Source of the DNA: a virus
Length of the DNA stretch: 64,000 bases
Direction: 5' to 3' (one strand)
IMG/VR virus record: IMGVR_UViG_3300031485_000046
Of the stretch, positions 26,978 to 58,590 are shown in pieces (within the stretch, counting starts at the first letter, position 1; each line of letters starts with the position of its first letter). Under the pieces are notes generated by a model. The model was not told the origin of the DNA. It ran no database searches and worked only from the letters and a program-made list of their open reading frames with translations. The translations under genes were made by a program, and so were the position numbers.

Positions 26978-27578
26978 AAACAATATCGCGGTTATAGGAC
27001 ACGGTCCTAGCACTCGTGGAAGGAAACTAGGCAGTTTCATTAACCTTTGTGATACGGTCATTCGCATGATCGAATGTGATTGGCAGGATGCAGAAGATTA
27101 CGGTAGTAAATATACGATCGGTGTATATGCTACGGGAGGATCTGACGATTTTACAAAGGTGATTGAACGAAAGCCTTCTCTTTGCTGGTGGGTGTACGTT
27201 GCGGCTGGAACCCGTCCTTCTACGGCGATGAATGATGATACAGTAGATGCTCCAGGTGTTGCGGGTCGTCCGATACGGTGGTTACGAAGAACCGTATGGG
27301 ATTGGATCGGTGATAATAAAAAGTTCTCTAGAGGTACTGCTGCCGCGATTGCGTCTATGGCGATCCTAAAACCCACTACAGTTCATTTAGTTGGGTTTGA
27401 TGATGTTGCAAGGGGTGGAATGCTGAAAGGAGCATATCATCCTCCTGAGTTGCAACAGTACCTCAAAGAACAAGGAAAGACACTTGCCAGAAGTGAAACA
27501 GACCATGATTGGAATAATGAAGGCACCGTACTCCAACGTGCCGCAGACTATTACGGAGTTGAGGTGAATTTTCTATGA
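26964..27578 (+). CDS. Sialyltransferase-like glycosyltransferase candidate 2 (paralogue)
   Basis: Motifs IAVIGHGPS, RGTAAAIASMAILKPTTVHLVGFDD, HDWNNE; RBS GGAGGCG. Confidence 0.6.
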   Translation: MVLHKNNIAVIGHGPSTRGRKLGSFINLCDTVIRMIECDWQDAEDYGSKYTIGVYATGGSDDFTKVIERKPSLCWWVYVAAGTRPSTAMNDDTVDAPGVAGRPIRWLRRTVWDWIGDNKKFSRGTAAAIASMAILKPTTVHLVGFDDVARGGMLKGAYHPPELQQYLKEQGKTLARSETDHDWNNEGTVLQRAADYYGVEVNFL

Positions 27579-28813
27579 AGACAATATCAGAGGAATATAT
27601 TCGCCTTAATTCTGAGGTACACAACCAGCGGAGAGGGTACGGTAATTCAGCCAATCGGTTTGCTAAGGACATTGGGCTTGTTTTGCATCAGTTCCACACA
27701 ATGTCTTTTCTGGATTATGGATGCGGAAAAGAATCTTTGATCCGTTGTATTACGAAGGACTATCCGTATCTTGCCCAGAGAGCAAAGTATGGAGCATACG
27801 ATCCAGCTATACCGCACCGGTCCGTTAAGCCGGAAGAGCAGTATGATATGGTTATTTCTACAGATGTTCTTGAACACATTGAACCTGAATATCTGTCAGC
27901 CGTGCTGGAAGAGATCAAAGGATATGCTAAAAAAGGCGTCTATCTGAATATCTGTATGCGACCGTCAGGAGATATTCTACCTGATGGTCGAAATGCCCAT
28001 CTGATCGTTAAAGATGCCCCGTGGTGGCGTGAAACACTATCCAAAGCGTTTGAAGGATGGGCACTGGAAGAACGGGATGTACTTGACTCTTGGCGCAATT
28101 ATACAGTAGTATTGACACCACCTAAGATTCAAAAGCCATTAAATATCGTCTGTTTCTACTGGAAAGGTACGAGTAATCGGTACCCAGGATGGGACGATGT
28201 GGATTTGGCAAAGATTTATGTCAACAATCTGTATAATGGCGTCCGTCGAAATTTGAACAAGGATTACAAGTTCATCTTGTTTTCCAATGATATTGAAGAT
28301 GGGCTGGATCCACATGTAGAGATACGAAAGTTCCAGCCTATCTCGTGGACAGGGTGCAATCCTAAGTTGTATGTGCATAGCCCAGATGCAGGATTAGAGG
28401 GAAGGGTGCTTACGTTTGATATGGATACTATCATCGTAGGAGACCTTACTAATTTTGCAGAATACGATGGGGCTTTCACTACACGGATGGAACCTGACCG
28501 AAGAAGAGTAACAGCAGGAGACCTGCTAGGATTTGAAGCAGGTGAAACGTACCAGTTATGGGAGAATTATAAGAATATCTCCAAGTATGCTGAAAAGTAT
28601 CAAGGAGATGAAAGGGAGATCTACAAACTTCTTTGGAAACATTTGCTGTACTGGCAAGAAGAAATACCCGGGCAGTTGGTTTCTTATAAAGGTGATGTTC
28701 GTCCTAATCAGAACAGACTGCCTAGAAATGCAAGAATTGTAAGTGCGCACGGTAAGCCTCGTCCGCATGAGATCAATGCGGAATGGATTAAATCGTGTTG
28801 GTGGGGAAAATGA
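27575..28813 (+). CDS. Fusion protein: N-terminal class I SAM-dependent methyltransferase, C-terminal domain of unknown (possibly transferase) function
   Basis: FLDYGCGKESL (motif I-like) and MVISTDVLEHIEP (motif II-like); C-terminal FDMDTIIVGD. Confidence 0.6.
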   Translation: MKTISEEYIRLNSEVHNQRRGYGNSANRFAKDIGLVLHQFHTMSFLDYGCGKESLIRCITKDYPYLAQRAKYGAYDPAIPHRSVKPEEQYDMVISTDVLEHIEPEYLSAVLEEIKGYAKKGVYLNICMRPSGDILPDGRNAHLIVKDAPWWRETLSKAFEGWALEERDVLDSWRNYTVVLTPPKIQKPLNIVCFYWKGTSNRYPGWDDVDLAKIYVNNLYNGVRRNLNKDYKFILFSNDIEDGLDPHVEIRKFQPISWTGCNPKLYVHSPDAGLEGRVLTFDMDTIIVGDLTNFAEYDGAFTTRMEPDRRRVTAGDLLGFEAGETYQLWENYKNISKYAEKYQGDEREIYKLLWKHLLYWQEEIPGQLVSYKGDVRPNQNRLPRNARIVSAHGKPRPHEINAEWIKSCWWGK

Positions 28814-29526
28814 AACCGTATGTAGAATCTCCCATTATCATAACAGGTTGTCCACGAAGCGGAACTAGCATCATTTCTGGGATGTTAGAAATATGTGGTG
28901 CATTTGCAGGAACTATTCCACAGCCTACGAAACACGAAACAAGAGGCATGGGAGAGAATCGGGTTATATATGAGGATGTTGTTAAACCGTATATTCAGAG
29001 TTTGCAAGCGGATCCATCTGGACAATGGCCATTGATGGATTCTGAAAAACTGATGATTCCTATCGACTGGGAATCAATGATTTCAGACGCCTTGCACAAG
29101 GATGGCTATATGGGAGGCAAATGGCTATATAAGAGTAATACTGCGGCTCTTATGTGGAAAGTGTGGTCCTACGCCTATCCTAGCGCCAAATGGGTCCTAG
29201 TACGCAGGCGTACAGGTGACATAGTTTCTTCATGTTTGCAGACCTCGTATATGAAAGCATTCAAAAATCCTGCATATCGTAAGGAAATTGGAGCGGAAAC
29301 AGAATCAGAAGCATGGATCCATTGGGTACATAAGTATGAAGAAGCCTTTGTAGGGATGTTGACTGCGGGAGTTAATTGTAAGGTTGTCTGGCCGGAAAGA
29401 TTCGTAAGAAACGATTATCAACAGTTGTATGAAGTAATTGAATGGGTAGGGCTTGAATGGAAATCTTCTGTAGCAGATTATCTAGACCCAAAGCTATGGA
29501 AGAATGAACGGAAGGAGGAGTGCTGA
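28810..29526 (+). CDS. Sulfotransferase
   Basis: IIITGCPRSGTSIISGML (5'-PSB PAPS-binding motif) and VLVRRRTGDIVSS (3'-PB-like); ATG 28810 overlaps upstream stop (ATGA). Confidence 0.7.
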   Translation: MKPYVESPIIITGCPRSGTSIISGMLEICGAFAGTIPQPTKHETRGMGENRVIYEDVVKPYIQSLQADPSGQWPLMDSEKLMIPIDWESMISDALHKDGYMGGKWLYKSNTAALMWKVWSYAYPSAKWVLVRRRTGDIVSSCLQTSYMKAFKNPAYRKEIGAETESEAWIHWVHKYEEAFVGMLTAGVNCKVVWPERFVRNDYQQLYEVIEWVGLEWKSSVADYLDPKLWKNERKEEC

Positions 29527-29894: not shown

Positions 29895-30277
29895 TGGTTA
29901 GCGGGCTTATCAAGTTCATAAAAAAAGTGTGTGTTCAGCCTGCCGTTTATTGGGGTGCTCCGAAGCCCGATGGATTTGGCGGAATGACATACGGCACTCC
30001 CGTAGAAATAAAATGTAGGTGGACAGATAAAGTGCAGGTAATAAAGTGGCAAAGTGCATACGTACCGACAAGTAATGAATTTATTTCTTATGCGGAAATA
30101 CTGTTGTATTATGATGTGGAGCTTCAAGGTGTGTTATGGCTTGGTTCTCTTACATCCTTGTCTACCACACAAAAAGCCGCTCCACTTACAATACCTGGCG
30201 CACGGGAAATAAAGACATTGGAACGGGTTCCTTTGTTCAGATCGTCTACGGAATTCGTAAAGAAGGTGTATCTGTAA
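29891..30277 (+). CDS. Hypothetical head-tail joining protein
   Basis: Operon position; 4-nt overlaps. Confidence 0.55.
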   Translation: MMVSGLIKFIKKVCVQPAVYWGAPKPDGFGGMTYGTPVEIKCRWTDKVQVIKWQSAYVPTSNEFISYAEILLYYDVELQGVLWLGSLTSLSTTQKAAPLTIPGAREIKTLERVPLFRSSTEFVKKVYL

Positions 30278-30771
30278 TGGCATACGCGGTATGGAATGGT
30301 TTGCCAAAAGTGATTCAAAATCTAAATGCACAGATAATGAAAATTCAGGGACGAACACTACTTGGATTGATACGTGGTGCATCAATTATCAAAGATACGA
30401 TGGATTCTATGCCTCCTGTTATACCTGTTGATACAGGAAATATGCGCCATAGTTGGTTTGTTGTCACGAACAATGGTGGTGTTCGAGCTGGAAAGAATCC
30501 TAGTTTTCTGCCGGGTCCGCATAATGATCGAGATGTTGCAAAGCTAAAGAGTGACCACGCTAAGGCGATTTCAGTATCCGCTTCTATGATTAAAGGCAAA
30601 GAACCGGCGGTAGCATTAGGTTTTTCTGCCTATTATACGATGTGGGTACATGAAAACGTAGGCGCACATTTTACAAAACCGGGTTCTGGTGCTAAGTTTT
30701 TTGAAGCAGGAATAAAAAATAGTACCAAACGAGTATTGATGGTGATACAATCGGAGGCGAAAATACGATGA
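30277..30771 (+). CDS. HK97 gp10-like neck/tail completion protein
   Basis: VDTGNMRHSW motif; ATG 30277 overlaps upstream stop (TAATG). Confidence 0.6.
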   Translation: MAYAVWNGLPKVIQNLNAQIMKIQGRTLLGLIRGASIIKDTMDSMPPVIPVDTGNMRHSWFVVTNNGGVRAGKNPSFLPGPHNDRDVAKLKSDHAKAISVSASMIKGKEPAVALGFSAYYTMWVHENVGAHFTKPGSGAKFFEAGIKNSTKRVLMVIQSEAKIR

Positions 30772-31205
30772 ATGCTCCTTCTATTGATATAAAGGATATT
30801 TTAGCGTATATTCCTCCTTCCGAATCATCTAGTGGATACGATCCTGTTAATGAGTTTGGATTAACATTCGGATCAAATTTATTTGTAGGACGAGAGCCTG
30901 CACAACCAGACGAAACAGTTACAATTTTCGACGTTGTAGGATGGGAGCCTCAGCTTACCTTTAACAAAGAAGAGATATATGAGTACCCGGCTGTTCAAGT
31001 AAGAGTTCGTTCCAGATCGTATGTCACTGGTTGGAATCTTCTTGAACAGATTGTACGGAGGTTGCACGGAATTGCTCAGGAAACATGGAATGGGACATTG
31101 TATAGTGTAGTGCGGTGTTCCAGAGCACCGATGCTCTTGGATTGGGATGAAAATGCAAGAGTGCGGTTAATTGCTAGTTTTGAAATTCAAAGGAGGAGTG
31201 CTTAA
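30768..31205 (+). CDS. Putative tail terminator/neck protein
   Basis: Position between neck genes and major tail protein. Confidence 0.55.
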   Translation: MNAPSIDIKDILAYIPPSESSSGYDPVNEFGLTFGSNLFVGREPAQPDETVTIFDVVGWEPQLTFNKEEIYEYPAVQVRVRSRSYVTGWNLLEQIVRRLHGIAQETWNGTLYSVVRCSRAPMLLDWDENARVRLIASFEIQRRSA

Positions 31206-31206
31206 T

Positions 31207-31641
31207 ATGGCAATTGCTGGTGTTGGAACAGTATTCAACCGTTGGGACCCTACAGCGGGATCGTCGGGCGGATGGAAAAGAATTGCGGAGATTAACAATA
31301 TCACTGGCCCGGGTATGTCGAGGGATACGATTGATACATCCACCCTTGATACTGAGGGCGGATATCGGACATTCATCACAGGATTCAGAAATGCAGGCAC
31401 CATGACCCTTGCGATGAATTTTACTCAGGCAACCTATCTTCAGATGAAGGCAGATTTTGAGAGTAATGATCCTGTTTCTTATCAGGTCATTCTTCCGGAT
31501 GATGAAGAAACTGTGATCGAATTCGATGGACTTGTTACTGAAATTCCGTTGACGATTCCTACGGATGACAAGATTACTGCGGATGTTACGATTCAGATCA
31601 GCGGCCCTGTTGATGTATTCAAGGGCAGTAGTGGAATGTAA
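31207..31641 (+). CDS. Major tail protein
   Basis: Position upstream of chaperone pair and tape measure; ATG 31207 with AAAGGAGG RBS. Confidence 0.7.
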   Translation: MAIAGVGTVFNRWDPTAGSSGGWKRIAEINNITGPGMSRDTIDTSTLDTEGGYRTFITGFRNAGTMTLAMNFTQATYLQMKADFESNDPVSYQVILPDDEETVIEFDGLVTEIPLTIPTDDKITADVTIQISGPVDVFKGSSGM

Positions 31642-31660
31642 TTAAGAGAGGAGCCTAATC

Positions 31661-32083
31661 ATGGCATTTTTGAACAGGGAAGAACTTCTGAAAAAAGCAC
31701 CGTTTAGGGTGGAACGAGTAGATTTTCCTAATGGGGATTTTGTGTTCGTTCGCCAAATGTCTTCTAAGATGAAAGATCAGCTAGAAAATTCGGTTCTTAG
31801 GCGTAGTATTGACAAGAACGGACAGGTACAGTTTGAACAGGATCTTTCAGGATTCAATGCAAAAGTAGCGGCACTTTCTCTTTGTGATGAAGAAGGTAAT
31901 CTGCTTCTTTCTTTGAAGGATGCAGACCTGCTTGCAGAGAACAAACCCGCAGAAATGATTGATACCATTTCTCTTAAAGCAGGTGAACTGAACGGCATTT
32001 CTGTCAATGCGAAAGAGGAAGCAGTAAAAAACTCCGAGAGCGGCACACCCGAAGATTCCTCTTCAGGTTGTGTCGAGAATTAG
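31661..32083 (+). CDS. Tail assembly chaperone (gpG-like)
   Basis: Acidic small protein directly upstream of tape measure, with overlapping -1 frame ORF. Confidence 0.7.
   Translation: MAFLNREELLKKAPFRVERVDFPNGDFVFVRQMSSKMKDQLENSVLRRSIDKNGQVQFEQDLSGFNAKVAALSLCDEEGNLLLSLKDADLLAENKPAEMIDTISLKAGELNGISVNAKEEAVKNSESGTPEDSSSGCVEN
32026..32032 (+). other. Candidate -1 programmed ribosomal frameshift slippery site A_AAA_AAC
   Basis: Heptamer in zero frame of chaperone ORF (codons GTA AAA AAC); -1 frame open from 31987 to 32433. Confidence 0.55.
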
Positions 32084-32433
32084 GATACACACACCCTAAC
32101 GATCTGCTGGAATGCCTCTCACTTGAGGAACTCCAAGAATGGGAGGCATTCGATTCCTTAGAGCCTGTGGGAAGATTAGAAGAACGAATGGAATATATGT
32201 TTGGGATGGTTTGCGCAGTTATCACAAACAATATTGCCGCCATATTCGGTAAGAAGGGTTCTAATCAGACTACAGTAACTCCAGCAGATTTCATGCCTAA
32301 ATGGGGTGTGTTCCCTGAAGAAGTAAAAAAGGAAAAACAGATACAATCTGTTGAGGAAATGAAACAAATACTGCTTTCTATGGCTAAAGTACAGAATACC
32401 AAACATCCTAGAGAAAGGAGGCGAAGAAAATAA
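32032..32433 (+). CDS. Frameshift extension of tail assembly chaperone (gpGT-like C-terminal part)
   Basis: -1 frame ORF ending at tape measure start; no independent RBS. Confidence 0.55.
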   Translation, partial: LRERHTRRFLFRLCRELGYTHPNDLLECLSLEELQEWEAFDSLEPVGRLEERMEYMFGMVCAVITNNIAAIFGKKGSNQTTVTPADFMPKWGVFPEEVKKEKQIQSVEEMKQILLSMAKVQNTKHPRERRRRK

Positions 32434-35067
32434 ATGGCGATAGGTGGTACTGCTAGTCTTGGAACACTTGTTACCACACTTGGTGTTAATTCAAAACCAC
32501 TGTTGACTGCGGAAAAGCAGGTAGCCACATTTGCTAATAGAACGAATACGTTGATGGCGTCTGTCCGTAGGACAATGATGACCGTATTCGCTACTGTTGG
32601 TGTGGGCCGTCTTGCTAAAGGATTTCTTGATGCCGCCGTATCTGTGGAAAATTACAAAGTATCTTTGAACGCCGTTATCAAGGACGCACAAAAAACGGAA
32701 GCTGTATTCCAAGACCTTTTCAAATGGGCGTCCATCAATCCTATTGATACGGATGATGCTATTAAATCATTTGTTCGTCTGAAAACAGCTGGTGTGGAAA
32801 ATACAAAAGCCGCTGTTGTCGCCGCGGCAGATGCGGCAACAGTTATGCAGAAACCTGTTGAATACGTAGCAAATGCGATGGTTTCTACGAATAATAAGAT
32901 GCTTCGGCAGATAGGTGTACAGCTTGACCGTACAGGTAAAACAGCTATTATCCGAAGTGGTAAAGTACGAATTGAAGTTGAAAAAGATATAGACAAGATC
33001 CGTCAAGGCATTATCGAGGTTCTTCAAAAGAATTTCGGTGGTGCGATGGATGCTTTCAAAAATACCTGGAGAGGTTCTCTGAATACCATGAAAGGTCTTT
33101 GGTGGACTTTCATGGCGGAAGTTATGGGAACAAACAATTCAGGAGGTCCTTATGAAACATTGGTCAAAGGGATAAACAGGGTTCGGGATGCTTGGATAGA
33201 ATGGAGAGAAACTACGGATTATACAGAATTTGTAGCAAATACCCAAGCAGTATTTTCAGCCATGATTGATGGGATGATAAAGGGTATTGAGATGTTAGTA
33301 AAAGGGTTTAAGTGGTTGCTTGATAATCTAGAGATGGTAAAAACAGCGATTATTGTACTTGCAAGTGCGAGAGTGATGGGGCTTCTTATCCGTTCCTTTG
33401 CTCTCCTTCGTACTGAATTAATTGCAGGAAGTGCAGCCACTTCGTTATTTATGAAGGCGATATATGCGCTCAGGCTTGCATTTCTTGAACTACGCACGGC
33501 AAATACAATTTTAGGAGGGCTAAAAGGGGCACTTGCCGCTTTGGGGCTAGGGCCGGGTGGTTTGTTAATCGGAGCAATCGGTGGTTTGGTACTCCTTGCG
33601 GAAAATTTGAAACCTCCGTTCCAAGTTGCGTATGATGAGATTCGCAGATTCAAGCAGGAATTACGCACCATCCCTGTAGACAAGATTAAGGAGATTGTTG
33701 ATCTTAGTTATTCCATGGGTGGGTTTGGGATGGGGGGAAATTATAAAGCCTCCATAGCGCAAGCAGTACAAAATGAAACAGGTAGAACATTGGCTGAAAT
33801 AAAAACACAAGCTGGTAAAATGAAAGCTATGTGGAATTACATGAAGCAAAAAGGGTATGGGGATAAGATATATGTAGAGCCAGAAACAACAGATCAACCT
33901 AGTATGGGCGGCGGTGAATCTAAGTATAAAAAACTCATCCAGCAAATGAAGGATGAGGCAAAATATCTTGGTGCAAACGTACAAGCCTTTCTTCCTATAC
34001 TGGATCAATGGGCATCTAAGATGAAACCTCTTTCTGAGGATTGGAAGCTGATTAAAGATTATGCTGTGGAAATAAGAACAGGAATGGCTAAAGAAGCTGG
34101 GAAAGAAGCCGCTGATACAATGAAACGGCTGGAAGAGCAAATAAAATTGCAAAAGGAAGCGAGAGAAGCGGCGGAACAAGGAGTAGAAAAGTTCTGGAGC
34201 ACCGCGGCTAATGGATTTTCGCAAGGACTTATTAAAGGTCAAGAGTATTTCCAGATGCTCACAAATGAATTTGAAAAATTGAAAGAAGCGGTAAATGCAG
34301 AAGCCGGTGGGTTTTTGAATATGGAAGATATATTCAATTGGACTGAACCGATGTGGACTATATTTTCTGAATTGCAGAGTGTGGGAGGACATCTTGCTAA
34401 TCTTGACCTTACTAGGCTCAACGAGCAGTTGGAAAAAGGGGTTCTTTCTCAAAAAGAGTGGAATGCGGCCGTACAGGAATTACTCGACAAATACTCCGCG
34501 CTTCCTTCTGTCGTGGAACAAGTAAACAACGCTCAGCAAAACACAAAGAAGACCTCCGACGAGTTCGGAATAAGCGCAAAACTCTGGGCGAACGACCTCT
34601 CACAAGGACTTGCACAAGCCATTGTCAACGCCGAAGACCTGGGTGACGCGCTGCGGAATATTGCCAAGTCCATAGCAGGGAGTTTTTTACAAAAGCTCAT
34701 CGGTGGATGGATCGGCGGTTTATTCGCCGACGGCGCGGCCTTTCAAGGCGGGAGCGTCATCCCGTTCGCAAAAGGTGGTATCGTGGGCCGCCCGACAATC
34801 TTCCCTATGGCTCGCGGCATGGGCTTGATGGGGGAAGCTGGCCCGGAGGCGGTCATGCCGTTGACACGGACAGCAGGGGGCGAGCTTGGCGTTAAGGCAG
34901 AGGGTAACGGCAGCGGCGAGATGAATATCACCATGAATATCAACGCCGTTGATAGCCGCTCCTTCGTGGAGATGATGCGGTCGAACAGGGCGAGCGTTGA
35001 AAGCATCGTTGTGGAAAATATTATGAAAAACGGGGCTGTTAGGAGTGCTATGAGGGGGATGGCGTAA
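32434..35067 (+). CDS. Tail tape measure protein
   Basis: 877 codons, hydrophobic segments, position after chaperone pair. Confidence 0.9.
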   Translation: MAIGGTASLGTLVTTLGVNSKPLLTAEKQVATFANRTNTLMASVRRTMMTVFATVGVGRLAKGFLDAAVSVENYKVSLNAVIKDAQKTEAVFQDLFKWASINPIDTDDAIKSFVRLKTAGVENTKAAVVAAADAATVMQKPVEYVANAMVSTNNKMLRQIGVQLDRTGKTAIIRSGKVRIEVEKDIDKIRQGIIEVLQKNFGGAMDAFKNTWRGSLNTMKGLWWTFMAEVMGTNNSGGPYETLVKGINRVRDAWIEWRETTDYTEFVANTQAVFSAMIDGMIKGIEMLVKGFKWLLDNLEMVKTAIIVLASARVMGLLIRSFALLRTELIAGSAATSLFMKAIYALRLAFLELRTANTILGGLKGALAALGLGPGGLLIGAIGGLVLLAENLKPPFQVAYDEIRRFKQELRTIPVDKIKEIVDLSYSMGGFGMGGNYKASIAQAVQNETGRTLAEIKTQAGKMKAMWNYMKQKGYGDKIYVEPETTDQPSMGGGESKYKKLIQQMKDEAKYLGANVQAFLPILDQWASKMKPLSEDWKLIKDYAVEIRTGMAKEAGKEAADTMKRLEEQIKLQKEAREAAEQGVEKFWSTAANGFSQGLIKGQEYFQMLTNEFEKLKEAVNAEAGGFLNMEDIFNWTEPMWTIFSELQSVGGHLANLDLTRLNEQLEKGVLSQKEWNAAVQELLDKYSALPSVVEQVNNAQQNTKKTSDEFGISAKLWANDLSQGLAQAIVNAEDLGDALRNIAKSIAGSFLQKLIGGWIGGLFADGAAFQGGSVIPFAKGGIVGRPTIFPMARGMGLMGEAGPEAVMPLTRTAGGELGVKAEGNGSGEMNITMNINAVDSRSFVEMMRSNRASVESIVVENIMKNGAVRSAMRGMA

Positions 35068-35399
35068 TGGCAGAGACATTTTCCTATTCGCCTCTCTATG
35101 CGTATCAAAGAGGATTAAATCATAATGTCCTGATAACGGAGTTTGAATCAGGAAAAGAGCAACGTAAGTATTTAGGAGTTCGTGCTAGGACGTGGACACT
35201 CGGATTCCGAGCCGACGTTGCTACCATCCAGGGAATCGAGGATTTCTACAATGCCCGTGGTGGTAATTACGAGGCGTTCAACTGGACACCTCCGGGAGGA
35301 AGCGCCATTTCCGTCCGGTTTGAGGAAGGGAGCCTGTCGGTCAGTTATTACGGCTCTCAGTACGGCGAATGTGAAGTCACATTGAGGGAGATATTATGA
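35067..35399 (+). CDS. Minor tail protein M-like (lambda gpM family)
   Basis: GGNYEAFNWTPP resembles lambda gpM GGWKSFLWTPP (recalled); TAATG coupling to tape measure. Confidence 0.75.
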   Translation: MAETFSYSPLYAYQRGLNHNVLITEFESGKEQRKYLGVRARTWTLGFRADVATIQGIEDFYNARGGNYEAFNWTPPGGSAISVRFEEGSLSVSYYGSQYGECEVTLREIL

Positions 35400-35938
35400 G
35401 CAGGGCAGGAGCGGCATATATAGCAGAATCGGCGAATGACGAACTGAAGCCTATCCTGCTGGTGCGTGCGCTGGATATTCCACAGGTGCTCAATCCTTCG
35501 GTCAAGGTCAGTCTGTATTTGACCAATGCGCAAACGGACATATCCTTTTTTGACGAGAATGATAACACCCAATTGTACACTGCATGCGCCCTGTCCTATG
35601 ACCAGGTGCAGGCGTCCACGGATAATGAGATCGGCACGGTAAACGTGCGGCTGGACAACGTATCAGGGACGTTTACCAGCCTTGCGAAGGACTACCTTTT
35701 ACGCGGCGTGAGAATGCATCTGCTGGAGGCGTTCCAGGATACGTTATTGTCTCCTGCCGGGGCGCGGTGGATATTCCAGGGACATCTCGAAAAAGCGATT
35801 ATAGGGATGTCAGCCATCGAGGTGATGGTCAAGGCGGATTTTTCTCTTTCGACGCGGGTTCCTCGCAGGCTCTACTGGGTGAAGGACTTCCCGCATCTCC
35901 CGTCTGCGAAAGACCCGCGGACGCTGGCGCTGAAATGA
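35396..35938 (+). CDS. Minor tail protein L-like
   Basis: Position in M-L-K-J order. Confidence 0.6.
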   Translation: MSRAGAAYIAESANDELKPILLVRALDIPQVLNPSVKVSLYLTNAQTDISFFDENDNTQLYTACALSYDQVQASTDNEIGTVNVRLDNVSGTFTSLAKDYLLRGVRMHLLEAFQDTLLSPAGARWIFQGHLEKAIIGMSAIEVMVKADFSLSTRVPRRLYWVKDFPHLPSAKDPRTLALK

Positions 35939-36321
35939 TCGGTATTCCGTGGAAGACGAAAGGGCGGGACCGGGACGGGATTGACTGCGTCGGTCTAGCC
36001 CTTCTCGCGCAAAAGGAGCTGTACGGGCGGGAGTATGACTTCCCATTTGACTACGACCCGGAGACGGGGGATGAGCGCGTTTTGCTCGACTGGCTGGAAG
36101 ACATAGCTGATGAAGTGGACATACCGCAGAATGGAGACCTGGTGATTTATCGGATGCCGGGAATTGACGGGATTGTAAAACATCACATCGGTACGGTCGT
36201 TGGCGAGGCATTGTTGCACATTTATCCGGGGAAGAGTTCTCGGAAGGTGAAAATCAGGATGAAACGGATCTACAAAATCTACCGGGCGAAGGAGGTGGAG
36301 ACATGCCGGGAGCGGCAATAG
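35935..36321 (+). CDS. Tail assembly protein K-like (NlpC/P60 peptidase fold)
   Basis: GIDCVGLALL (Cys) and HHIG (His) motifs; start at internal ATG 35935. Confidence 0.7.
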   Translation: MIGIPWKTKGRDRDGIDCVGLALLAQKELYGREYDFPFDYDPETGDERVLLDWLEDIADEVDIPQNGDLVIYRMPGIDGIVKHHIGTVVGEALLHIYPGKSSRKVKIRMKRIYKIYRAKEVETCRERQ

Positions 36322-39300
36322 GGGCGCTGTTAGGATTTGCCTTGTCAGGAACTGGGCTTGGGATAGGACTTGCAGGATTCCTTGGCGTTTCAGCCGGTAC
36401 CCTCTGGATGGTTGGGGCCTCCCTCGGTTCGTTGTTCGACGGACCGGATATCGACCTTGGAGGTTCGACGCCTAATTACACATTCGGACAGCTGTCGAAT
36501 ACGAAGAGCCAAATGCTCCCCATCCCCATCGTATACGGGCGGTGCAGGGTCGGCGGGAATGTGTTCATGCAGACGTTTTACGACGATACCTTGCAGAAAA
36601 TGGATATGCTGGTCGGTGTTTCCGAAGGGCCAATCCAGTCCATAAAATCCATTTACGCCAGCGACACGGAACTGACGGATGTAAACGGTGATATTACCCA
36701 CGAATTGGAAGAGGTGACGCTGAACGTCCACCTCGGTGAACCAGGCCAGGTTGCTGACAGCCGAGACCCCAGCGGGAGCACATATGCGAATGTGGCTTAT
36801 GTGGGGCTGACGCTGAAGGCGCAGGACGGGCTATCAGGCAACCCTACCATATCGTCCATAGTGGAAGGGCGGAAGATATGGACGCCTGCTGGTACGATGT
36901 TTTCAAGGAACCCAGCGTGGATCGTCTATGACTTCCTGACCAATACCCGCTACGGCGTCGGCATTCCAACAGACCTGATCGACCTCGACTCATTCATGGC
37001 GTCCGCCGACTATTGTGACGCTCTGGTTGAGGGTGAACCTCGTTTCACACTGGATTATATCATCGACACTCAGCGACCGGCGGTGGACCATCTGCAATCC
37101 ATGCTGGCTTGTTTTAGAGGGTATTTCCTCGCCCGGGACAAGATCGAATTGCACGTGGAGCAGGCCGGGAGTGTGTACAAGGCCCTTGGGCCGGATAATT
37201 TCGTGAAGGACAGCTTCACCTGGTGGCAGAAGAGCGGCGACGATTCACCGAACAGAATCACCCTGGAGTGGATCGACCCGGACAACCATTACGAGCAGTC
37301 CTCGGCTGTGTTTGAGTATCAGGAGGATATGCAGGCTCGTGGTGTTTTTGAAAAATCATTCTCCGTGCTCGGAGTAACCCGCTCGTCCCAGGTAGGTCGG
37401 TTGGGTAATTACCTGATGGAAACAGCAAAGCGGGTACAGAATTTCTGCTCGTTCCAGGTGGGACTCCAAGATGCCGACATCGAGGCAGGGGAAATCATAT
37501 CCCTGACATATCCCGATTTTACGGGGTGGGATTCGAAACCCTTCCGGGTTGTGGCGGTGCAGGACCACGGTGATTCGGGTTTAGTTACAATCACCTGTGC
37601 GGAATATGATGCGACGGTATACGGTGATGATGCGCTGCCTGTGCAGACACCCATAGTAGACCCGACGCCCGTTACCTATGACGATGTGTACTCCCTCGCT
37701 CTTGAGGATATGGGGCATATCGCCGATGACGGGACATGGTTCCCGGTAATTCGTGCTACGTGGCAGAACCCGTCCGACTACACGCCCGCTGCACTTAACA
37801 TCCGCTGGCGATATAGCGGCGATACGGTATGGAACCTGCATCTGAACACGTCCCGGCTGACCACGCAGACCAACATTACCGGGCTGACTACCGGAGAGGA
37901 TCTGGAAGTTTGGGTTAATTGCGTTAAGCCAAATAATGGCAGGGAGACAACCGGGGCGACGGCAACGCTGTCCGTAGGACGGGATGTTACCCCTCCGGCG
38001 GCCCCAACTTCCCTTACTGCAACGGGATGGTTTGGAAGCATTAATCTGGAATGGGTGAATCCTGCTGACAGGGACCTTAGTCATATCGAGGTATGGGAAA
38101 ATGCCATTGATAACAGGGCAACCGCAGTAAAAATTGCCGAGACAAAAGGGACATCATACCAGCGGTATGTAGGGTCGTTCATTACTCGTTACTACTGGGT
38201 GCGGGCGGTTGATTTCTCAGGCAACGTGGGCGCATGGAACGCTACGGCAGGCACGGCTGGCAACTCTGACCAGAAGAACCATCAGGATTTTGTAGATTTG
38301 GTGCTACAGGAAAATCCGTATCTCGCAGAAGTACAGACAGACCTCAACTCAGCGATAGTTTTAGGCGACACAAACATTAAGACAATTGACCTGCCTGGCT
38401 ATGAGCAGAGGATAGCCAACCGCATTGATGAGGTCAACGATGACATAATGACGCAGGTCAACACGTATGCTGACGGAACTATCGATGCGATGCTTGACGC
38501 TTCCGAAGCAATAAGTGCAGTAAGAGATGCGGGGATTATTACCGATCCTGTTACGGGATTGACAAGCATTTTCGCCCTTGATGCATACAAGACAGCAAAT
38601 GACGCAAGAGTATCAAACGTTGAGATTGACCTTGATGCAGTCGAATCCACTCTTACATCTAAGGTCACTCTGGCACAGGTGGACGAGCGGATCGCAGGGG
38701 CTGTCTTCGGCGATGCAGGGGAATTGCTCCTGTCCGGCGTGGATGCACGGGTGTCGCTGGTAGAGGAGACCCTTGACGGTGTTGAGGCCGAACTTCTCGA
38801 AAAGGCAACATACGTGGAGGTGAACGAACTCGGCGGGCGAATCGGCACAGCAGAGTCAAGGTTAGACGGTCATGATGCGGAGATTGCCATGCTTGCCACG
38901 TCACAGGAACTTGACGAGGTAGAGAGCCGTGTGACAACGGCAGAGCTTAATATCGATGCCCTTGAAGGATCAATTGTCAATAAGGTTGCCAGCACGGTAA
39001 CGATTACACAAGACCAAGAGGAGCTAATAGCACAGGGCCTGGTTGATGCGATGCTAAACGACCGTGAGGCACAGACCGATGCTAAGGCAAAAACGCAGAG
39101 TGCATTAGCAATAGCGGAGTCTGAACTGTACGCCCATGTCAATGATGAGATGGAAGCAGAGGCGGGGCAGAGATTGTTGTTGGCGGCGAAAGTTGACAAT
39201 AATCAAGCGACTATCCAGAGTGAGTCTGTCGCACGAGCAAATGCTGATTCCGCCATAGCCTCTAATGTATCAACATTGTCAACCACCGTAGGGAACAACA

Positions 39301-55510: not shown

Positions 55511-57328
55511 TTATTTGAAATGGTAATCTCCCTTCTCATTCCAAGAACAATCAACAGGACACACTTCTGCTTCTACTTCCAAGGGTACATTTATCCAGCT
55601 CCAGTGCTTAGGTAAATCTTCACAAGTAATCCTATGAACAGTAGACGCAACCATATCTAATTCGTCAGGATGCACATCCAACACCATTGCGTCATGTATC
55701 TGTCCGATCAATCTGGATTTCCAGTTCTGTTCTCTGGATATCTTGTCAACCTGAATGAACGACCATAACAGACAATGAAATGCACTTCCCTGAATAGGAA
55801 TATTTATGCATTCATTCCTACGCATGATACCAGAACATCTGAATCCTGTGTACATGCTCACATACCCGTTTTTTTGATACCCTTCCCACCACTTGTCTTT
55901 CCAACGATTATACACTTTGAATCGCCTATTCCAAAAATCATCTTCAATTTTCTTGATATGGTCCGTAAACTTATCGAAGGAATCTAGCTTGTTTGCAATC
56001 AAGTGGTCGGAAATATGACCTCCGTCATGCTCAATGCCTTCACCTTTCTTCCATTTGCCTTTAGATAATCCGCACCATTTACAAGCAATATTTTCGGCGC
56101 AGTTTACATAATAGTCACCATAGAACTGCGGAAATACAAATCCGTTCTTTGCCGCTTGCCTCATCATTTTATGCGATGGTATACTCTTGTCTAACTTATC
56201 AAGTACAAATATCTGACAAGCCATATCACCGTGCATATCCGATGAAGGATCTTCAATGTACTTTCTCATAACAGGGTCATGATGGTAACACTCGCTGATT
56301 CTTACTTCCACTCCTGAATAGTCTATTTCAAGTAGCTGGTGACCTGGCTTAGGAAATATCGCTTTGCGAGTAATCTCCATAGCCTCTTTATCTCGCTTGG
56401 GAATATTTTGGAAGTTTATCCGCTCCGATGAATTATGTACGCATATTTGGTTCACGATAAAATTATGATATTTTTCCACTTCAATATCGTACACATCTAC
56501 CGGCTCATCAAGGTACTCTATTGTGTGGTCTGTATGATTAGACAATACCTTATTAGAAAGACGTGTATCTGATAACGCCCTCGCTTGCACGTATGTTCCA
56601 TCTATTAGACGGATTTTGTGCTCAGGTGTCACATCTAAGTATCCTTTCCCACCTCCACCGTTTATAGAGTAATGGATTCGCACAACTTTCTTATGTCCTG
56701 TTTTGCCAGCCCATATAACTTTTTGAATAGAAGGGCGGAGTTTATCGTCAAAACAATACACATAATCACCCTTCTTTACATTTTCAATAGGGGTCCCTTC
56801 TGGTTGTGCTTCAAAATCTTTCATTACCAATACTTTAGATCCTTTAGCTACACAAGAGCGAAATGTCTTTACTGTATGCAAATTAAAGAAAGGATGCAAG
56901 TATCCGCCTACTTGTTCTCTTATGAAAGCATCCAGATACGTATCTCGCACCTTTTTCAATTTGCGCATTTCCAAAATCCACTTTATCTCAGGAATATCAA
57001 TCTGGGAAAGTGCTTCATCGTCTGTTGCACCCTTGCCAGATGGTGTCAACTTTGCAGGGGTGATTTTCCTAACATTGTACAAAAGGTGTGCTAACTGCCA
57101 ATTAGAATCAGGGTTAGCCTTAGCACCATACACCTTCGTCCAATGCATATAGAATTTAGTATCCCTGAGTTTTCTATCCAATCGTGCTATTTTTTTGTCA
57201 AGGTACTCTTTTTTCTTTAAGCAGTAATCAACATCAATCCGCATTCCTTCTTGTTCTGCCCTCGCAAAAGCAAGGATGCCATCTTGCAATAGCTGATATG
57301 CTTCAGGAAGATTAGGTGTCAGTTGCAT
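55511..57328 (-). CDS. DNA polymerase family A, polymerase subunit (intein-containing)
   Basis: NFQNIP, motif A DYSGVEVRI, motif B RQAAKNGFVFPQFYG, motif C QIHDAMV; start at ATG 57326-57328 with AAGGAGGG RBS. Confidence 0.9.
   Translation of the reverse strand: MQLTPNLPEAYQLLQDGILAFARAEQEGMRIDVDYCLKKKEYLDKKIARLDRKLRDTKFYMHWTKVYGAKANPDSNWQLAHLLYNVRKITPAKLTPSGKGATDDEALSQIDIPEIKWILEMRKLKKVRDTYLDAFIREQVGGYLHPFFNLHTVKTFRSCVAKGSKVLVMKDFEAQPEGTPIENVKKGDYVYCFDDKLRPSIQKVIWAGKTGHKKVVRIHYSINGGGGKGYLDVTPEHKIRLIDGTYVQARALSDTRLSNKVLSNHTDHTIEYLDEPVDVYDIEVEKYHNFIVNQICVHNSSERINFQNIPKRDKEAMEITRKAIFPKPGHQLLEIDYSGVEVRISECYHHDPVMRKYIEDPSSDMHGDMACQIFVLDKLDKSIPSHKMMRQAAKNGFVFPQFYGDYYVNCAENIACKWCGLSKGKWKKGEGIEHDGGHISDHLIANKLDSFDKFTDHIKKIEDDFWNRRFKVYNRWKDKWWEGYQKNGYVSMYTGFRCSGIMRRNECINIPIQGSAFHCLLWSFIQVDKISREQNWKSRLIGQIHDAMVLDVHPDELDMVASTVHRITCEDLPKHWSWINVPLEVEAEVCPVDCSWNEKGDYHFK
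56432..56854 (-). mobile_element. Mini-intein (141 aa) inserted in polymerase
   Basis: Begins Cys (CVAKGSKV), TPEH block B, ends YHNFIVNQICVHN followed by Ser; flanking exteins reconstitute HTVKTFRS-SERINFQNIP. Confidence 0.8.
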
Positions 57329-58590
57329 CCTATGTACCCTCCTTGCTGAATCCATCGCATTTGTTTAGATGCTAACCGGTAAGTGAACAAACTATCCATA
57401 CCACAGTATATCAATAGTTTATTCCAAATATCAGATCCTACAGGAACATCAAGCAATTTGTTCATGGAATTGCTATCTTTATCATCCGCCCCTTTAAGAT
57501 ATGGAGCGACCTCATCATCATACCCTGCTACACCAAAATTGATATAGGTTTGTATCTTCAATCCTGTGATGTCTGGTCTGTTATCAAGAATGTGTGTAGC
57601 CAACATAGTATCCCATATCCAGTTTTTTACTTCATACCCCAGAATATTTTGTGTCCATGTGTGTTCAAACTTCAGATTTTGGGCAATCTTTCCTATCTTG
57701 TCTGATTGCAAAATTTCCTTAAGCAGTCTATTTCCTTTCTTACTTTTAGGCATCCCAAAAACTATTGCATCTTCAGGATTACTACACATGGACATGCAGA
57801 TGATTTTGTGCTTGCTTGTATCATGCGGTTTAAGGCCCGTCGTTTCATAATCAATAGCAATAGAAAACGGAAACTTTCTAGAAAGAAACTCTTCAAAAAT
57901 TCCTACTAGCTCACTTTCTGATTTTACTATCTTGATAGCCGTCATTTCATCTGGATATGTTTGCATAGACATGTCCACTGTATTTAATGCCCTGTCAAGG
58001 TCCTGTTTCCATACTGTTCGATATTCCTGTGCATCTTGTTTTTCTACAAACTCTGGATGAAATATCGGGCAGATCCACGTATTGTATTTCCTATCTGGAA
58101 TAGTAAATCCTCTCCATTTATTCATTCCACCTAAATTCTTTGTCCAGATAGAACCTATCACGGAGTTTAATGCTAGTTCACCTACAAGAATTATCACTTT
58201 AGGTTTATACTGCTCAATAGTAGATAGCACTCTTCGTCGGCAACATTGAACTTCTTTTGTCCACGGATTGGTGGTTTCCTTGGACCCTGAAGCATAGCAA
58301 GACAAAGCAAAGAGATTCAGACAGTCTTTGAACAAATCAACGCCTCTACGTTCAAATTCTCGCCTAAGCGTTGTTCCAAATCTGTCTTGCCACGGTTTGC
58401 CTACTCGATCATCTCTACTGCTTGGCATATCACCAATGACCATTATTTTCTTTTCAAATTCCCCGAATGGTGCCATTCTAGGAGACGAAATATCTTTATA
58501 CAACCCACAAGAAGCGCAAGAGAAAGCCTTATTACCACTAGGCCTAGTTTTAGATTTAGTTTCTTCTACTGAAAAGAATCCACTAGCCAT
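57319..58590 (-). CDS. DNA polymerase A accessory subunit: UDG-like domain plus 3'-5' exonuclease domain
   Basis: N-terminal CASCG and IMVIGDMPS (family-4 UDG-like, variant motif); Exo I IDYETTGL; separate ORF overlapping pol subunit by 10 nt. Confidence 0.85.
   Translation of the reverse strand: MASGFFSVEETKSKTRPSGNKAFSCASCGLYKDISSPRMAPFGEFEKKIMVIGDMPSSRDDRVGKPWQDRFGTTLRREFERRGVDLFKDCLNLFALSCYASGSKETTNPWTKEVQCCRRRVLSTIEQYKPKVIILVGELALNSVIGSIWTKNLGGMNKWRGFTIPDRKYNTWICPIFHPEFVEKQDAQEYRTVWKQDLDRALNTVDMSMQTYPDEMTAIKIVKSESELVGIFEEFLSRKFPFSIAIDYETTGLKPHDTSKHKIICMSMCSNPEDAIVFGMPKSKKGNRLLKEILQSDKIGKIAQNLKFEHTWTQNILGYEVKNWIWDTMLATHILDNRPDITGLKIQTYINFGVAGYDDEVAPYLKGADDKDSNSMNKLLDVPVGSDIWNKLLIYCGMDSLFTYRLASKQMRWIQQGGYIGCN

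What the first reader, a model, noticed from the sequence alone, without database searches (positions are those of the whole stretch)
32026..32032. Candidate -1 programmed frameshift in the tail assembly chaperone
The slippery heptamer A_AAA_AAC lies in the zero frame of the chaperone gene, and the -1 frame is open from 31987 to 32433, ending exactly at the tape measure start. This is the conserved gpG/gpGT arrangement of long-tailed phages; the fused product would be about 257 aa.
Basis: partly seen in the sequence, partly recalled or inferred. Interest (0 to 1): 0.4.

Follow-up and report, generated by a model that had tools for sequence, protein, structure and literature searches.

The report
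Phage tail chaperone G/GT frameshift site
This is a well-supported but ordinary example of the ribosomal -1 frameshift that long-tailed phages use to make a short and a long version of their tail assembly chaperone, found here in an uncultured phage.

Summary
AAAAAAC lies at 32026-32032 as A_AAA_AAC in the zero frame of a 140-aa ORF (31661-32083). The -1 frame is open from 31987 to 32433, and its stop abuts the ATG of an 877-aa tape measure gene. The fused product is 257 aa.

- The -1 ORF is a Pfam Phage_tail_T (lambda gpT) homologue. The upstream ORF matches a PHROG tail-assembly-chaperone family. The neighbours are lambda-like (terminator, tube, TMP, gpM-like, gpJ-like).
- About 30 related viral loci, down to 20-35% protein identity, all carry an in-frame X_XXY_YYZ heptamer at the homologous place. 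The heptamer type varies.
- Substitutions fall on G-frame wobble positions before the heptamer and on T-frame wobble positions just after it.
- The T frame has no start codon with a Shine-Dalgarno sequence.
- A stable hairpin (32041-32075) starts 8 nt after the heptamer. It is kept in close relatives, and some distant ones have a hairpin of different sequence.

Nothing here is mechanistically new. It is a new member of the known gpG/gpGT kind. No experimental proof is possible with these tools.

The parts
31207..31641 (+). Major tail tube protein gene, lambda-like TTP. The ORF list starts it at TTG 31171, but the ATG at 31207 behind AAAGGAGG is the likelier start.
   Evidence: Pfam Phage_TTP_11 E 2.5e-12, Phage_TTP_12 E 1.6e-11; upstream sequences
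31661..32083 (+). G-like tail assembly chaperone ORF (zero frame, 140 aa, stop TAG). It has a strong SD (GAGGAG) upstream.
   Evidence: phrog_344 'tail assembly chaperone' E 3.3e-15; ORF and translation; SD
32015..32019 (+). SD-like GAGGA, 6 nt upstream of the heptamer. It is a possible 5' stimulator, with weak evidence.
   Evidence: Anti-SD duplex -6.0 kcal/mol. A GAGG-type motif recurs 5-9 nt upstream in most relatives. However, 18% of background coding windows score as well, and the motif encodes conserved Glu residues.
32026..32032 (+). Slippery heptamer A_AAA_AAC, the site of the -1 tandem slip (tRNA-Lys in the P site, tRNA-Asn in the A site).
   Evidence: Invariant in all close relatives. 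An X_XXY_YYZ heptamer sits at the homologous position in all distant ones. The Asn codon is invariant in alignment A3.
32041..32075 (+). Predicted stem-loop (14 bp with two bulges, GAAGA/UCUUC apical stem, UUCC loop), 8 nt 3' of the heptamer. It is the candidate 3' frameshift stimulator.
   Evidence: dG -16.5 alone; -20.2 with z -2.9 in a 58-nt context; top 0.9% of local 45-nt windows; 92% of cells paired in 9 relatives, with pair 32043-32073 seen as AU/GC/GU
32032..32433 (+). T segment: -1 frame coding region read after the slip (133 codons plus TAA). It has no start codon or SD of its own.
   Evidence: Pfam Phage_tail_T PF06223 E 2.9e-13; phrog_337. Residues R2 and R8, which lie before the first possible start (TTG 32068 = invariant Leu13), are invariant to 24% identity. 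T-frame wobble periodicity begins in 32033-32067.
31661..32433 (+). GT fusion product, join(31661..32032, 32032..32433), 257 aa.
   Evidence: The fused sequence hits phrog_344 on residues 1-129 and phrog_337 on residues 131-248.
32434..35067 (+). Tape measure protein gene (877 aa). Its ATG abuts the T stop, and its SD (AAGGAGG) lies inside the T C-terminal codons.
   Evidence: Pfam TMP_3 (E 3.3e-05, below the curated cut-off) plus position and size. It is followed by a gpM-like gene, PF05939.

Best explanation
Genes 31661-32083 and 32032-32433 are the G and T segments of a lambda-type tail assembly chaperone. Most ribosomes translate G to its TAG stop and make a 140-aa chaperone. A minority slip one base back when A_AAA_AAC (32026-32032) occupies the P and A sites, with tRNA-Lys re-pairing AAA to AAA and tRNA-Asn re-pairing AAC to AAA. 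The slip is probably helped by the hairpin at 32041-32075, which meets the ribosome's mRNA entry channel 8 nt downstream. These ribosomes continue in the -1 frame to TAA 32431-32433 and make a 257-aa GT fusion. By analogy with lambda (inferred, not shown here), many G copies and a few GT copies coat the tape measure protein encoded immediately downstream. The T domain then recruits the tail tube protein, and neither product ends up in the virion. Shown here: the sequence anatomy, the homology, the conservation and the selection pattern. Inferred: the slip itself, its efficiency, the role of the hairpin, and the chaperone function.
For: Anatomy. Homology and synteny: T segment = PF06223 Phage_tail_T E 2.9e-13; G = phrog_344 TAC E 3.3e-15; neighbours are a tail terminator PF12691, a lambda-like tube, the TMP, gpM-like PF05939 and a gpJ-like PF13550/PF09327 protein. 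The lambda gpT N-terminal motif aligns 8 versus 9 residues after the slip site. Conservation: AAAAAAC is identical in 10 close loci and in L009 (65% id) and L011/L012 (35% id). 22 loci from the G-alignment scan (26-67% id to G, most 26-35%) all have an in-frame heptamer at the homologous place followed by a -1 ORF beginning (R)RFxFRLAxxLG. The types seen are AAAAAAC, AAAAAAT, AAAAAAG, AAATTTA, CCCTTTC/A, AAACCCT and GGGAAAC. As a background, only about 2.6% of other ORFs of 100 codons or more in the same DNA show such an arrangement (27/407 including the 17 chaperone ORFs themselves). Selection: variable columns by T-frame codon position are [63,14,8] upstream (which is G wobble), [1,2,7] in the overlap and [19,9,52] downstream (per-pair counts). 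No own start: TTG 32068 has no SD, whereas G, the TMP and the tube gene have GAGGAG/AAGGAGG. Conserved T-frame residues precede that TTG. 460 library homologues of T are stand-alone calls starting at scattered positions, query residues 2-56. The G tail after the Asn is unconserved and 0-34 aa long. Hairpin. Literature: the lambda G-T -1 frameshift with a 30:1 ratio is widely conserved in long-tailed phages, and A_AAA_AAC is used for g-t in the archaeal virus HCTV-2 (PMC5009743).
Against: There is no experimental evidence for the trans-frame protein. G shows no pairwise similarity to lambda gpG (BLASTP E 9.5), no Pfam hit, no PDB relative, and the single-sequence AF2 model was too poor to test the fold (pLDDT 50). 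In E. coli, A_AAA_AAC is reported as much less shifty than A_AAA_AAG (PMC5009743), and the host here is unknown. The hairpin lies in doubly coding sequence, so its conservation is confounded. Covariation is limited to one pair, and the shuffle control is unimpressive (65/500 for covariation). A strong hairpin is found in only about 5-7 of 19 lineages.
Confidence: 0.9

Rival explanations
1. The -1 ORF is translated on its own, either from TTG 32068 or by termination-reinitiation near the G stop. This would give separate G and T proteins with no fusion.
For: A TTG exists in the T frame at 32068, 13 nt before the G stop. Gene callers in public data call T homologues as stand-alone ORFs.
Against: There is no SD before TTG 32068, while neighbouring genes have strong ones. 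That TTG is simply the invariant Leu13 codon of the T alignment, and invariant Arg2/Arg8 lie upstream of it. T-frame wobble periodicity is already present in 32033-32067. The start positions of called homologues are scattered over query residues 2-56. An in-frame slippery heptamer is present in every relative, which independent initiation would not require.
Confidence: 0.04
2. The frame change is made by RNA polymerase slippage on the A6 run. Insertion of one A into the mRNA would be followed by standard translation, giving ...AVKKLRE....
For: The site is a homopolymeric run of six A. Transcriptional slippage on A/T runs is a known route to trans-frame products in bacteria (PMC5009743).
Against: Known bacterial cases use runs of about 9 A/T (PMC5009743), whereas this run is 6. 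Relatives keep the site with heptamers that are not homopolymers (AAATTTA, CCCTTTC, CCCTTTA, AAACCCT, GGGAAAC). Those fit tandem tRNA re-pairing but not polymerase slippage. The zero-frame register X_XXY_YYZ is kept in all relatives, which transcription would not care about.
Confidence: 0.04
3. The heptamer is a coincidence and the -1 ORF is a decaying or unexpressed remnant.
For: In a single genome the chance of an in-frame heptamer in the 32-codon overlap is about 0.11.
Against: The heptamer position is conserved over about 30 loci to 20-35% identity. There is purifying selection on the T frame, and the Pfam gpT homology is above the curated cut-off.
Confidence: 0.01

Closest known systems
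Bacteriophage lambda gpG / gpGT tail assembly chaperones, made by a -1 programmed ribosomal frameshift at G_GGA_AAG (Levin, Hendrix & Casjens 1993; Xu, Hendrix & Duda 2004, 2013, 2014; as summarised in PMC5009743)
   Same: The gene order is the same: tube - G - T(-1) - tape measure - gpM-like. G is 140 aa in both. The T segment is homologous (PF06223; FLFRLCRELG vs FALKLAREMG) and begins 8-9 residues after the slip site. T has no start of its own. The T stop abuts or overlaps the TMP start.
   Different: The heptamer is A_AAA_AAC rather than G_GGA_AAG, so the A-site tRNA is Asn, not Lys. G has no detectable pairwise similarity to lambda gpG. A stable hairpin lies 8 nt downstream. The GT product is 257 aa. 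The efficiency and the G:GT ratio are unknown.
E. coli dnaX -1 frameshift cassette (SD-like element, A_AAA_AAG, 3' stem-loop)
   Same: It is an A-rich heptamer of the A_AAA_AAN type, with a 3' stem-loop at canonical spacing and a purine-rich SD-like element upstream.
   Different: The gene and its purpose are different. The SD-like element here is only 5-7 nt upstream and is not statistically distinguishable from background (18%). The last base is C, not G. In dnaX the frameshift product is the shorter protein, whereas here it is the longer one.
g-t frameshift sites of the haloarchaeal siphoviruses HCTV-1, -2 and -5 (Sencilo et al. 2013, cited in PMC5009743)
   Same: HCTV-2 is reported to use the same heptamer, A_AAA_AAC, for its tail chaperone g-t frameshift.
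   Different: These are archaeal viruses. No sequence relationship to them was tested here.

Membership tests
Lambda-type gpG/gpGT tail assembly chaperone with -1 PRF | A pair of ORFs located between the major tail (tube) gene and the tape measure gene | tested here: met
   Tube 31207-31641 (Phage_TTP_11/12), G 31661-32083, T to 32433, TMP 32434-35067
Lambda-type gpG/gpGT tail assembly chaperone with -1 PRF | The second ORF overlaps the 3' end of the first in the -1 frame and lacks its own start/RBS | tested here: met
   The -1 frame is open 31987-32433. There is no SD before the only candidate start, TTG 32068. Conserved residues lie upstream of it. Called starts in homologues are scattered.
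Lambda-type gpG/gpGT tail assembly chaperone with -1 PRF | A zero-frame X_XXY_YYZ slippery heptamer inside the overlap | tested here: met
   A_AAA_AAC at 32026-32032, the only such heptamer in G
Lambda-type gpG/gpGT tail assembly chaperone with -1 PRF | The slippery site and two-frame arrangement are conserved among relatives despite sequence divergence | tested here: met
   All loci that were analysed. The selection switch at the heptamer is shown.
Lambda-type gpG/gpGT tail assembly chaperone with -1 PRF | The T segment is homologous to lambda gpT | tested here: met
   PF06223 E 2.9e-13, 50.5 bits against a cut-off of 25.9; BLASTP to lambda T E 0.002 over the N-terminal motif
Lambda-type gpG/gpGT tail assembly chaperone with -1 PRF | The G segment is homologous to gpG, i.e. 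has the TAC fold | tested here: inconclusive
   phrog_344 'tail assembly chaperone' E 3.3e-15. Against that: no Pfam hit, no similarity to lambda gpG, no PDB hit, and an AF2 model at pLDDT 50 that is unusable.
Lambda-type gpG/gpGT tail assembly chaperone with -1 PRF | Both G and the trans-frame GT protein are made, at a fixed low GT:G ratio | not testable with these tools
   Needs western blotting or MS, or a dual-reporter assay
Lambda-type gpG/gpGT tail assembly chaperone with -1 PRF | Both products are required for tail assembly, bind the TMP (G part) and the tube protein (T part), and are absent from virions | not testable with these tools
   Needs genetics and biochemistry on a cultured phage-host pair. 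The phage is known only from metagenomes.
dnaX-like tripartite -1 frameshift signal | A 3' stem-loop about 5-9 nt after the heptamer | tested here: met
   32041-32075, spacer 8 nt, dG -16.5 to -20.2, z -2.9, top 0.9% locally. Its stimulatory function was not tested.
dnaX-like tripartite -1 frameshift signal | An SD-like element about 10-14 nt 5' of the heptamer that pairs with 16S rRNA. The spacing figure is from my own recollection of Larsen et al. 1994 and was not checked here. | tested here: inconclusive
   GAGGA lies 6 nt upstream at -6.0 kcal/mol. The motif recurs in relatives, but 18% of background windows score as well and it encodes conserved Glu codons.

The most novel reading that the evidence does not exclude
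Within this chaperone family the stimulatory elements are modular and turn over quickly around a positionally fixed slip site. The elements are the heptamer type, a 3' hairpin, a stop codon placed directly after the heptamer, and a possible 5' SD-like element. If so, the family (about 20 lineages in hand) would be a natural series showing how phages tune the G:GT ratio to different hosts' tRNA pools and ribosomes. In the window itself, a weak heptamer (A_AAA_AAC) would be compensated by a strong hairpin.
Probability: 0.25. Interest if true: 0.25.

Novelty: new member of a known kind. Interest (0 to 1): 0.12.

Why it matters
The main value is for annotation. The phage has no relative in GenBank phage records. 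Public gene calls treat the T segment as a stand-alone small ORF with arbitrary starts. The correct annotation is join(31661..32032,32032..32433) for a 257-aa GT product, alongside the 140-aa G product. The finding also fixes the identity of the tube, chaperone and tape-measure genes in an uncultured lambda-like siphovirus lineage. In addition, it supplies about 20 divergent examples in which the slip position is constant while the heptamer and the stimulators vary. It does not change what is known about frameshifting or tail assembly.

Tried and rejected
- Megablast of 30000-36500 against GenBank phages found no match.
- tblastn of the fused protein against phages gave only a weak hit (E 7e-4) to a Rhodococcus phage tail assembly chaperone.
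- The search for homologous proteins with the fused 257-aa sequence returned nothing at E <= 1e-3.
- Rfam, at a permissive threshold over 31000-33000, returned nothing.
- A PDB sequence search with the fused protein returned nothing at E <= 1.
- The single-sequence AlphaFold2 model of G had mean pLDDT 50, so no fold search was run on it.
- Alignment A2 was too divergent to drive a genome-contig scan. The single-protein scan gave one locus.
- A +1 frameshift was rejected because the +1 frame closes after 23 codons.
- P0087, a 205-aa library protein with a C-terminal T-like region, was examined as a possible natural in-frame G-T fusion. Its N-terminus looks like a membrane or spurious segment, not a chaperone.
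- The SD-like 5' stimulator was considered but not adopted, because the background frequency is 18%.

Full report
OBSERVATION. Bases 32026-32032 are AAAAAAC. The ORF 31661-32083 (ATG behind a GAGGAG Shine-Dalgarno sequence, 140 aa, stop TAG) reads them as GT[A AAA AAC], Val-Lys-Asn. The heptamer is therefore in the X_XXY_YYZ register of the zero frame, and it is the only such heptamer in the ORF. The -1 frame is open from 31987 to TAA 32431-32433. The next base starts the ATG of an 877-aa ORF. A tandem -1 slip gives a 257-aa product...NAKEEAVKN|LRERHTRRFLFRLCRELGY.... The +1 frame closes after 23 codons. In one genome this is only mildly improbable: in-frame heptamers occur at 0.0036 per codon in this window's genes, so at least one in the 32-codon overlap has P about 0.11, and P about 0.03 for A6N types.

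WHAT THE GENES ARE. The window is a phage genome or a large part of one. It carries an SNF2 helicase, a terminase large subunit, a portal, an HK97-like capsid protein and a family A DNA polymerase with an intein. Around the finding the order is:
- tail terminator (PF12691, 30768-31205);
- lambda-like tail tube (Phage_TTP_11/12; likely start ATG 31207);
- the 140-aa ORF;
- the -1 ORF;
- an 877-aa protein with a weak TMP_3 match;
- a gpM-like protein (PF05939);
- further on, a gpJ-like protein of 1156 aa (PF13550, PF09327).

The -1 ORF matches Pfam Phage_tail_T, the lambda gpT family, at E 2.9e-13 and 50.5 bits against a curated cut-off of 25.9. It also matches phrog_337. The 140-aa ORF matches phrog_344 'tail assembly chaperone' at E 3.3e-15 over its whole length. 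I fetched lambda's own region. The T segments align over the N-terminal motif, FLFRLCRELGYTHPNDLLECLSLEELQEWEAF against FALKLAREMGRPDWRAMLAGMSSTEYADWHRF. That motif begins 9 residues after the slip site here and 8 residues after G_GGA_AAG in lambda. G shows no pairwise similarity to lambda gpG, as is usual for these fast-evolving chaperones.

COMPARATIVE EVIDENCE. No GenBank phage is close, but IMG/VR holds relatives, and one MAG contig does too.
- In ten close loci, in L009 (65% T identity) and in L011/L012 (35%), the heptamer AAAAAAC is identical and in the same register.
- A scan with a G alignment brought 22 further locus records at 26-67% identity to G, most of them 26-35% and a few from contigs already seen. 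Every one has an in-frame X_XXY_YYZ heptamer near the C-terminus of G, followed by a -1 ORF that begins with the (R)RFxFRLAxxLG motif.
- The heptamer type varies: AAAAAAC is the most common, alongside AAAAAAT, AAAAAAG, AAATTTA, CCCTTTC, CCCTTTA, AAACCCT and GGGAAAC.
- In the G alignment the Asn decoded at the A-site codon is one of six invariant residues. The G tail after it is unconserved and 0-34 residues long.
- In six loci the G stop codon directly follows the heptamer.
- As a control, an in-frame heptamer in the last 35 codons with a -1 extension of 50 codons or more occurs in 27 of 407 long ORFs of the same DNA. That count includes the 17 chaperone ORFs themselves, so the background is about 2.6%.

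SELECTION SWITCHES FRAME AT THE HEPTAMER. I counted variable alignment columns among close relatives by T-frame codon position. Upstream of the heptamer the counts are [63,14,8]; T-frame position 1 is G-frame position 3, so this is G wobble. In the 51-nt overlap they are [1,2,7], and in the T-only part [19,9,52], both T wobble. The binomial P for the overlap is 0.02 (per-pair counts). The switch is already visible in 32033-32067, before the only possible T-frame start codon, TTG 32068.

NO INDEPENDENT START.
- TTG 32068 is preceded by gcacacccgaagattcctcttcagg, with no SD. G, the tube gene and the TMP gene have GAGGAG or AAGGAGG.
- That TTG is the invariant Leu13 of the T alignment, and invariant Arg2 and Arg8 lie before it.
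- An exhaustive HMMER search with the T frame found 460 cluster representatives. Almost all are 79-150 aa stand-alone gene calls whose first residue maps anywhere between query residues 2 and 56. This is what arbitrary start-calling in a frame without a real start would produce.

STIMULATORY ELEMENTS. A stem-loop at 32041-32075 starts 8 nt after the heptamer (spacer TCCGAGAG).
- Its stability is dG -16.5 kcal/mol alone and -20.2 with z -2.9 in a 58-nt context. It is more stable than 99.1% of 45-nt windows within +/-2 kb.
- It is kept in nine relatives (92% of cells paired, against 30-52% for slid controls). One pair is seen as AU, GC and GU, and the middle of the stem changes register in some relatives.
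- The region codes in two frames, so conservation alone proves little, and the shuffle control for covariation is weak (65/500).
- More telling, L011/L012 have a 10-bp GC-rich hairpin of unrelated sequence 7 nt after the heptamer. L021/L052, L037 and L051 also have strong hairpins 3-8 nt downstream.
- Across 19 lineages, 5 fall in the top 5% and 7 in the top 10% of local windows, while several have nothing. A 3' hairpin is therefore a frequent but dispensable accessory in this family.
- An SD-like GAGGA lies 6 nt upstream, and similar motifs recur in relatives. However, 18% of background coding windows pair as well with the anti-SD, and the motif encodes conserved Glu codons. I do not count it as evidence.
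- Rfam has nothing here.

MECHANISM. The best explanation is the classical one, at confidence about 0.9. With AAA in the P site and AAC in the A site, both tRNAs slip one base 5' and re-pair with AAA AAA. tRNA-Asn is left with a wobble mismatch. Translation then resumes at CTC 32032-32034. The published review notes that A_AAA_AAC is much less shift-prone than A_AAA_AAG in E. coli, that lambda needs only a 30:1 G:GT ratio, and that the archaeal virus HCTV-2 uses A_AAA_AAC at its g-t site (PMC5009743). A weak heptamer helped by a hairpin fits a requirement for low efficiency. The roles of G and GT are inferred from lambda and not tested here: G parts coat the tape measure protein, the T part recruits the tube protein, and both are absent from virions.

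RIVALS.
- Independent initiation or reinitiation of T (0.04) is contradicted by the missing SD, by the conserved pre-start residues and by the universal heptamer.
- Transcriptional slippage on the A6 run (0.04) is contradicted by the relatives whose heptamers are not homopolymers, and by the preserved codon register. The run is also shorter than the roughly 9 nt of known bacterial cases.
- Coincidence (0.01) is excluded by the comparative data.

DEAD ENDS. The word-indexed protein search found nothing. tblastn in phages gave one weak TAC hit. The PDB gave nothing. The AF2 model of G was unusable. Alignment A2 was too divergent for a genome scan.

VERDICT. This is a new member of a thoroughly known kind, the lambda-type G/GT -1 programmed frameshift, in an uncultured phage lineage. 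It is useful for correct annotation as join(31661..32032,32032..32433). It also provides a small natural series of variant slip sites. A specialist would not find it surprising. Interest 0.12.

Noticed in passing
window 27575-29526: Two enzyme-like genes sit inside the structural module, between the capsid genes and the head-tail connector genes. One is a 412-aa protein with a Methyltransf_23 domain (E 2.3e-07). The other is a 243-aa protein of the Sulfotransferase family (PF13469, E 2.5e-11). A sulfotransferase in a phage morphogenesis block is unusual. It could modify a virion or a host surface component.
   Followed up: no
window 55511-57355 (- strand): A family A DNA polymerase ORF (614 aa) carries an intein splicing / HINT domain at about residues 189-308, ahead of the polymerase domain. 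The adjacent 423-aa ORF at 57319-58590 may be the N-terminal part of the polymerase.
   Followed up: no
L022 (CAZXHP010000048.1) and window start sites at 31207, 31661, 32434: The only match among 185,579 species genomes is a 21-kb contig binned into an 'uncultured Mariniphaga sp.' MAG, phylum Bacteroidota. Yet the phage genes carry strong GAGGAG/AAGGAGG Shine-Dalgarno sequences. From my own knowledge, Bacteroidota generally do not use these. The bin assignment may be wrong, or the host is something else.
   Followed up: partly
L011 2746-2755, L012 3995-4004, L037 2249-2258, L038, L051 2779-2788, L054 2812-2821: In six distant relatives the G stop codon follows the heptamer directly (AAAAAAC TGA or TAA). 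G therefore ends at the slip site, and the zero-frame A site after the slip is a stop codon. This may itself favour the frameshift.
   Followed up: partly
L039 2854-2866, L043 2863-2872, L044 1707-1716, L036 2860-2869: Some relatives have two or three overlapping in-frame slippery heptamers in a row, e.g. A_AAA_AAC / A_AAC_CCT / C_CCT_TTA in L039. This gives several possible slip points that lead to the same T frame.
   Followed up: no
L034/L035 and L036 (= L020): The -1 extension after the heptamer is only 56-62 codons in these loci, against 108-137 in the others. The T domain is either truncated or interrupted there.
   Followed up: no
window 31171-31205: The mechanical ORF list starts the tail tube gene at TTG 31171, overlapping the end of the terminator gene. 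The ATG at 31207, preceded by AAAGGAGG, is the more plausible start.
   Followed up: partly
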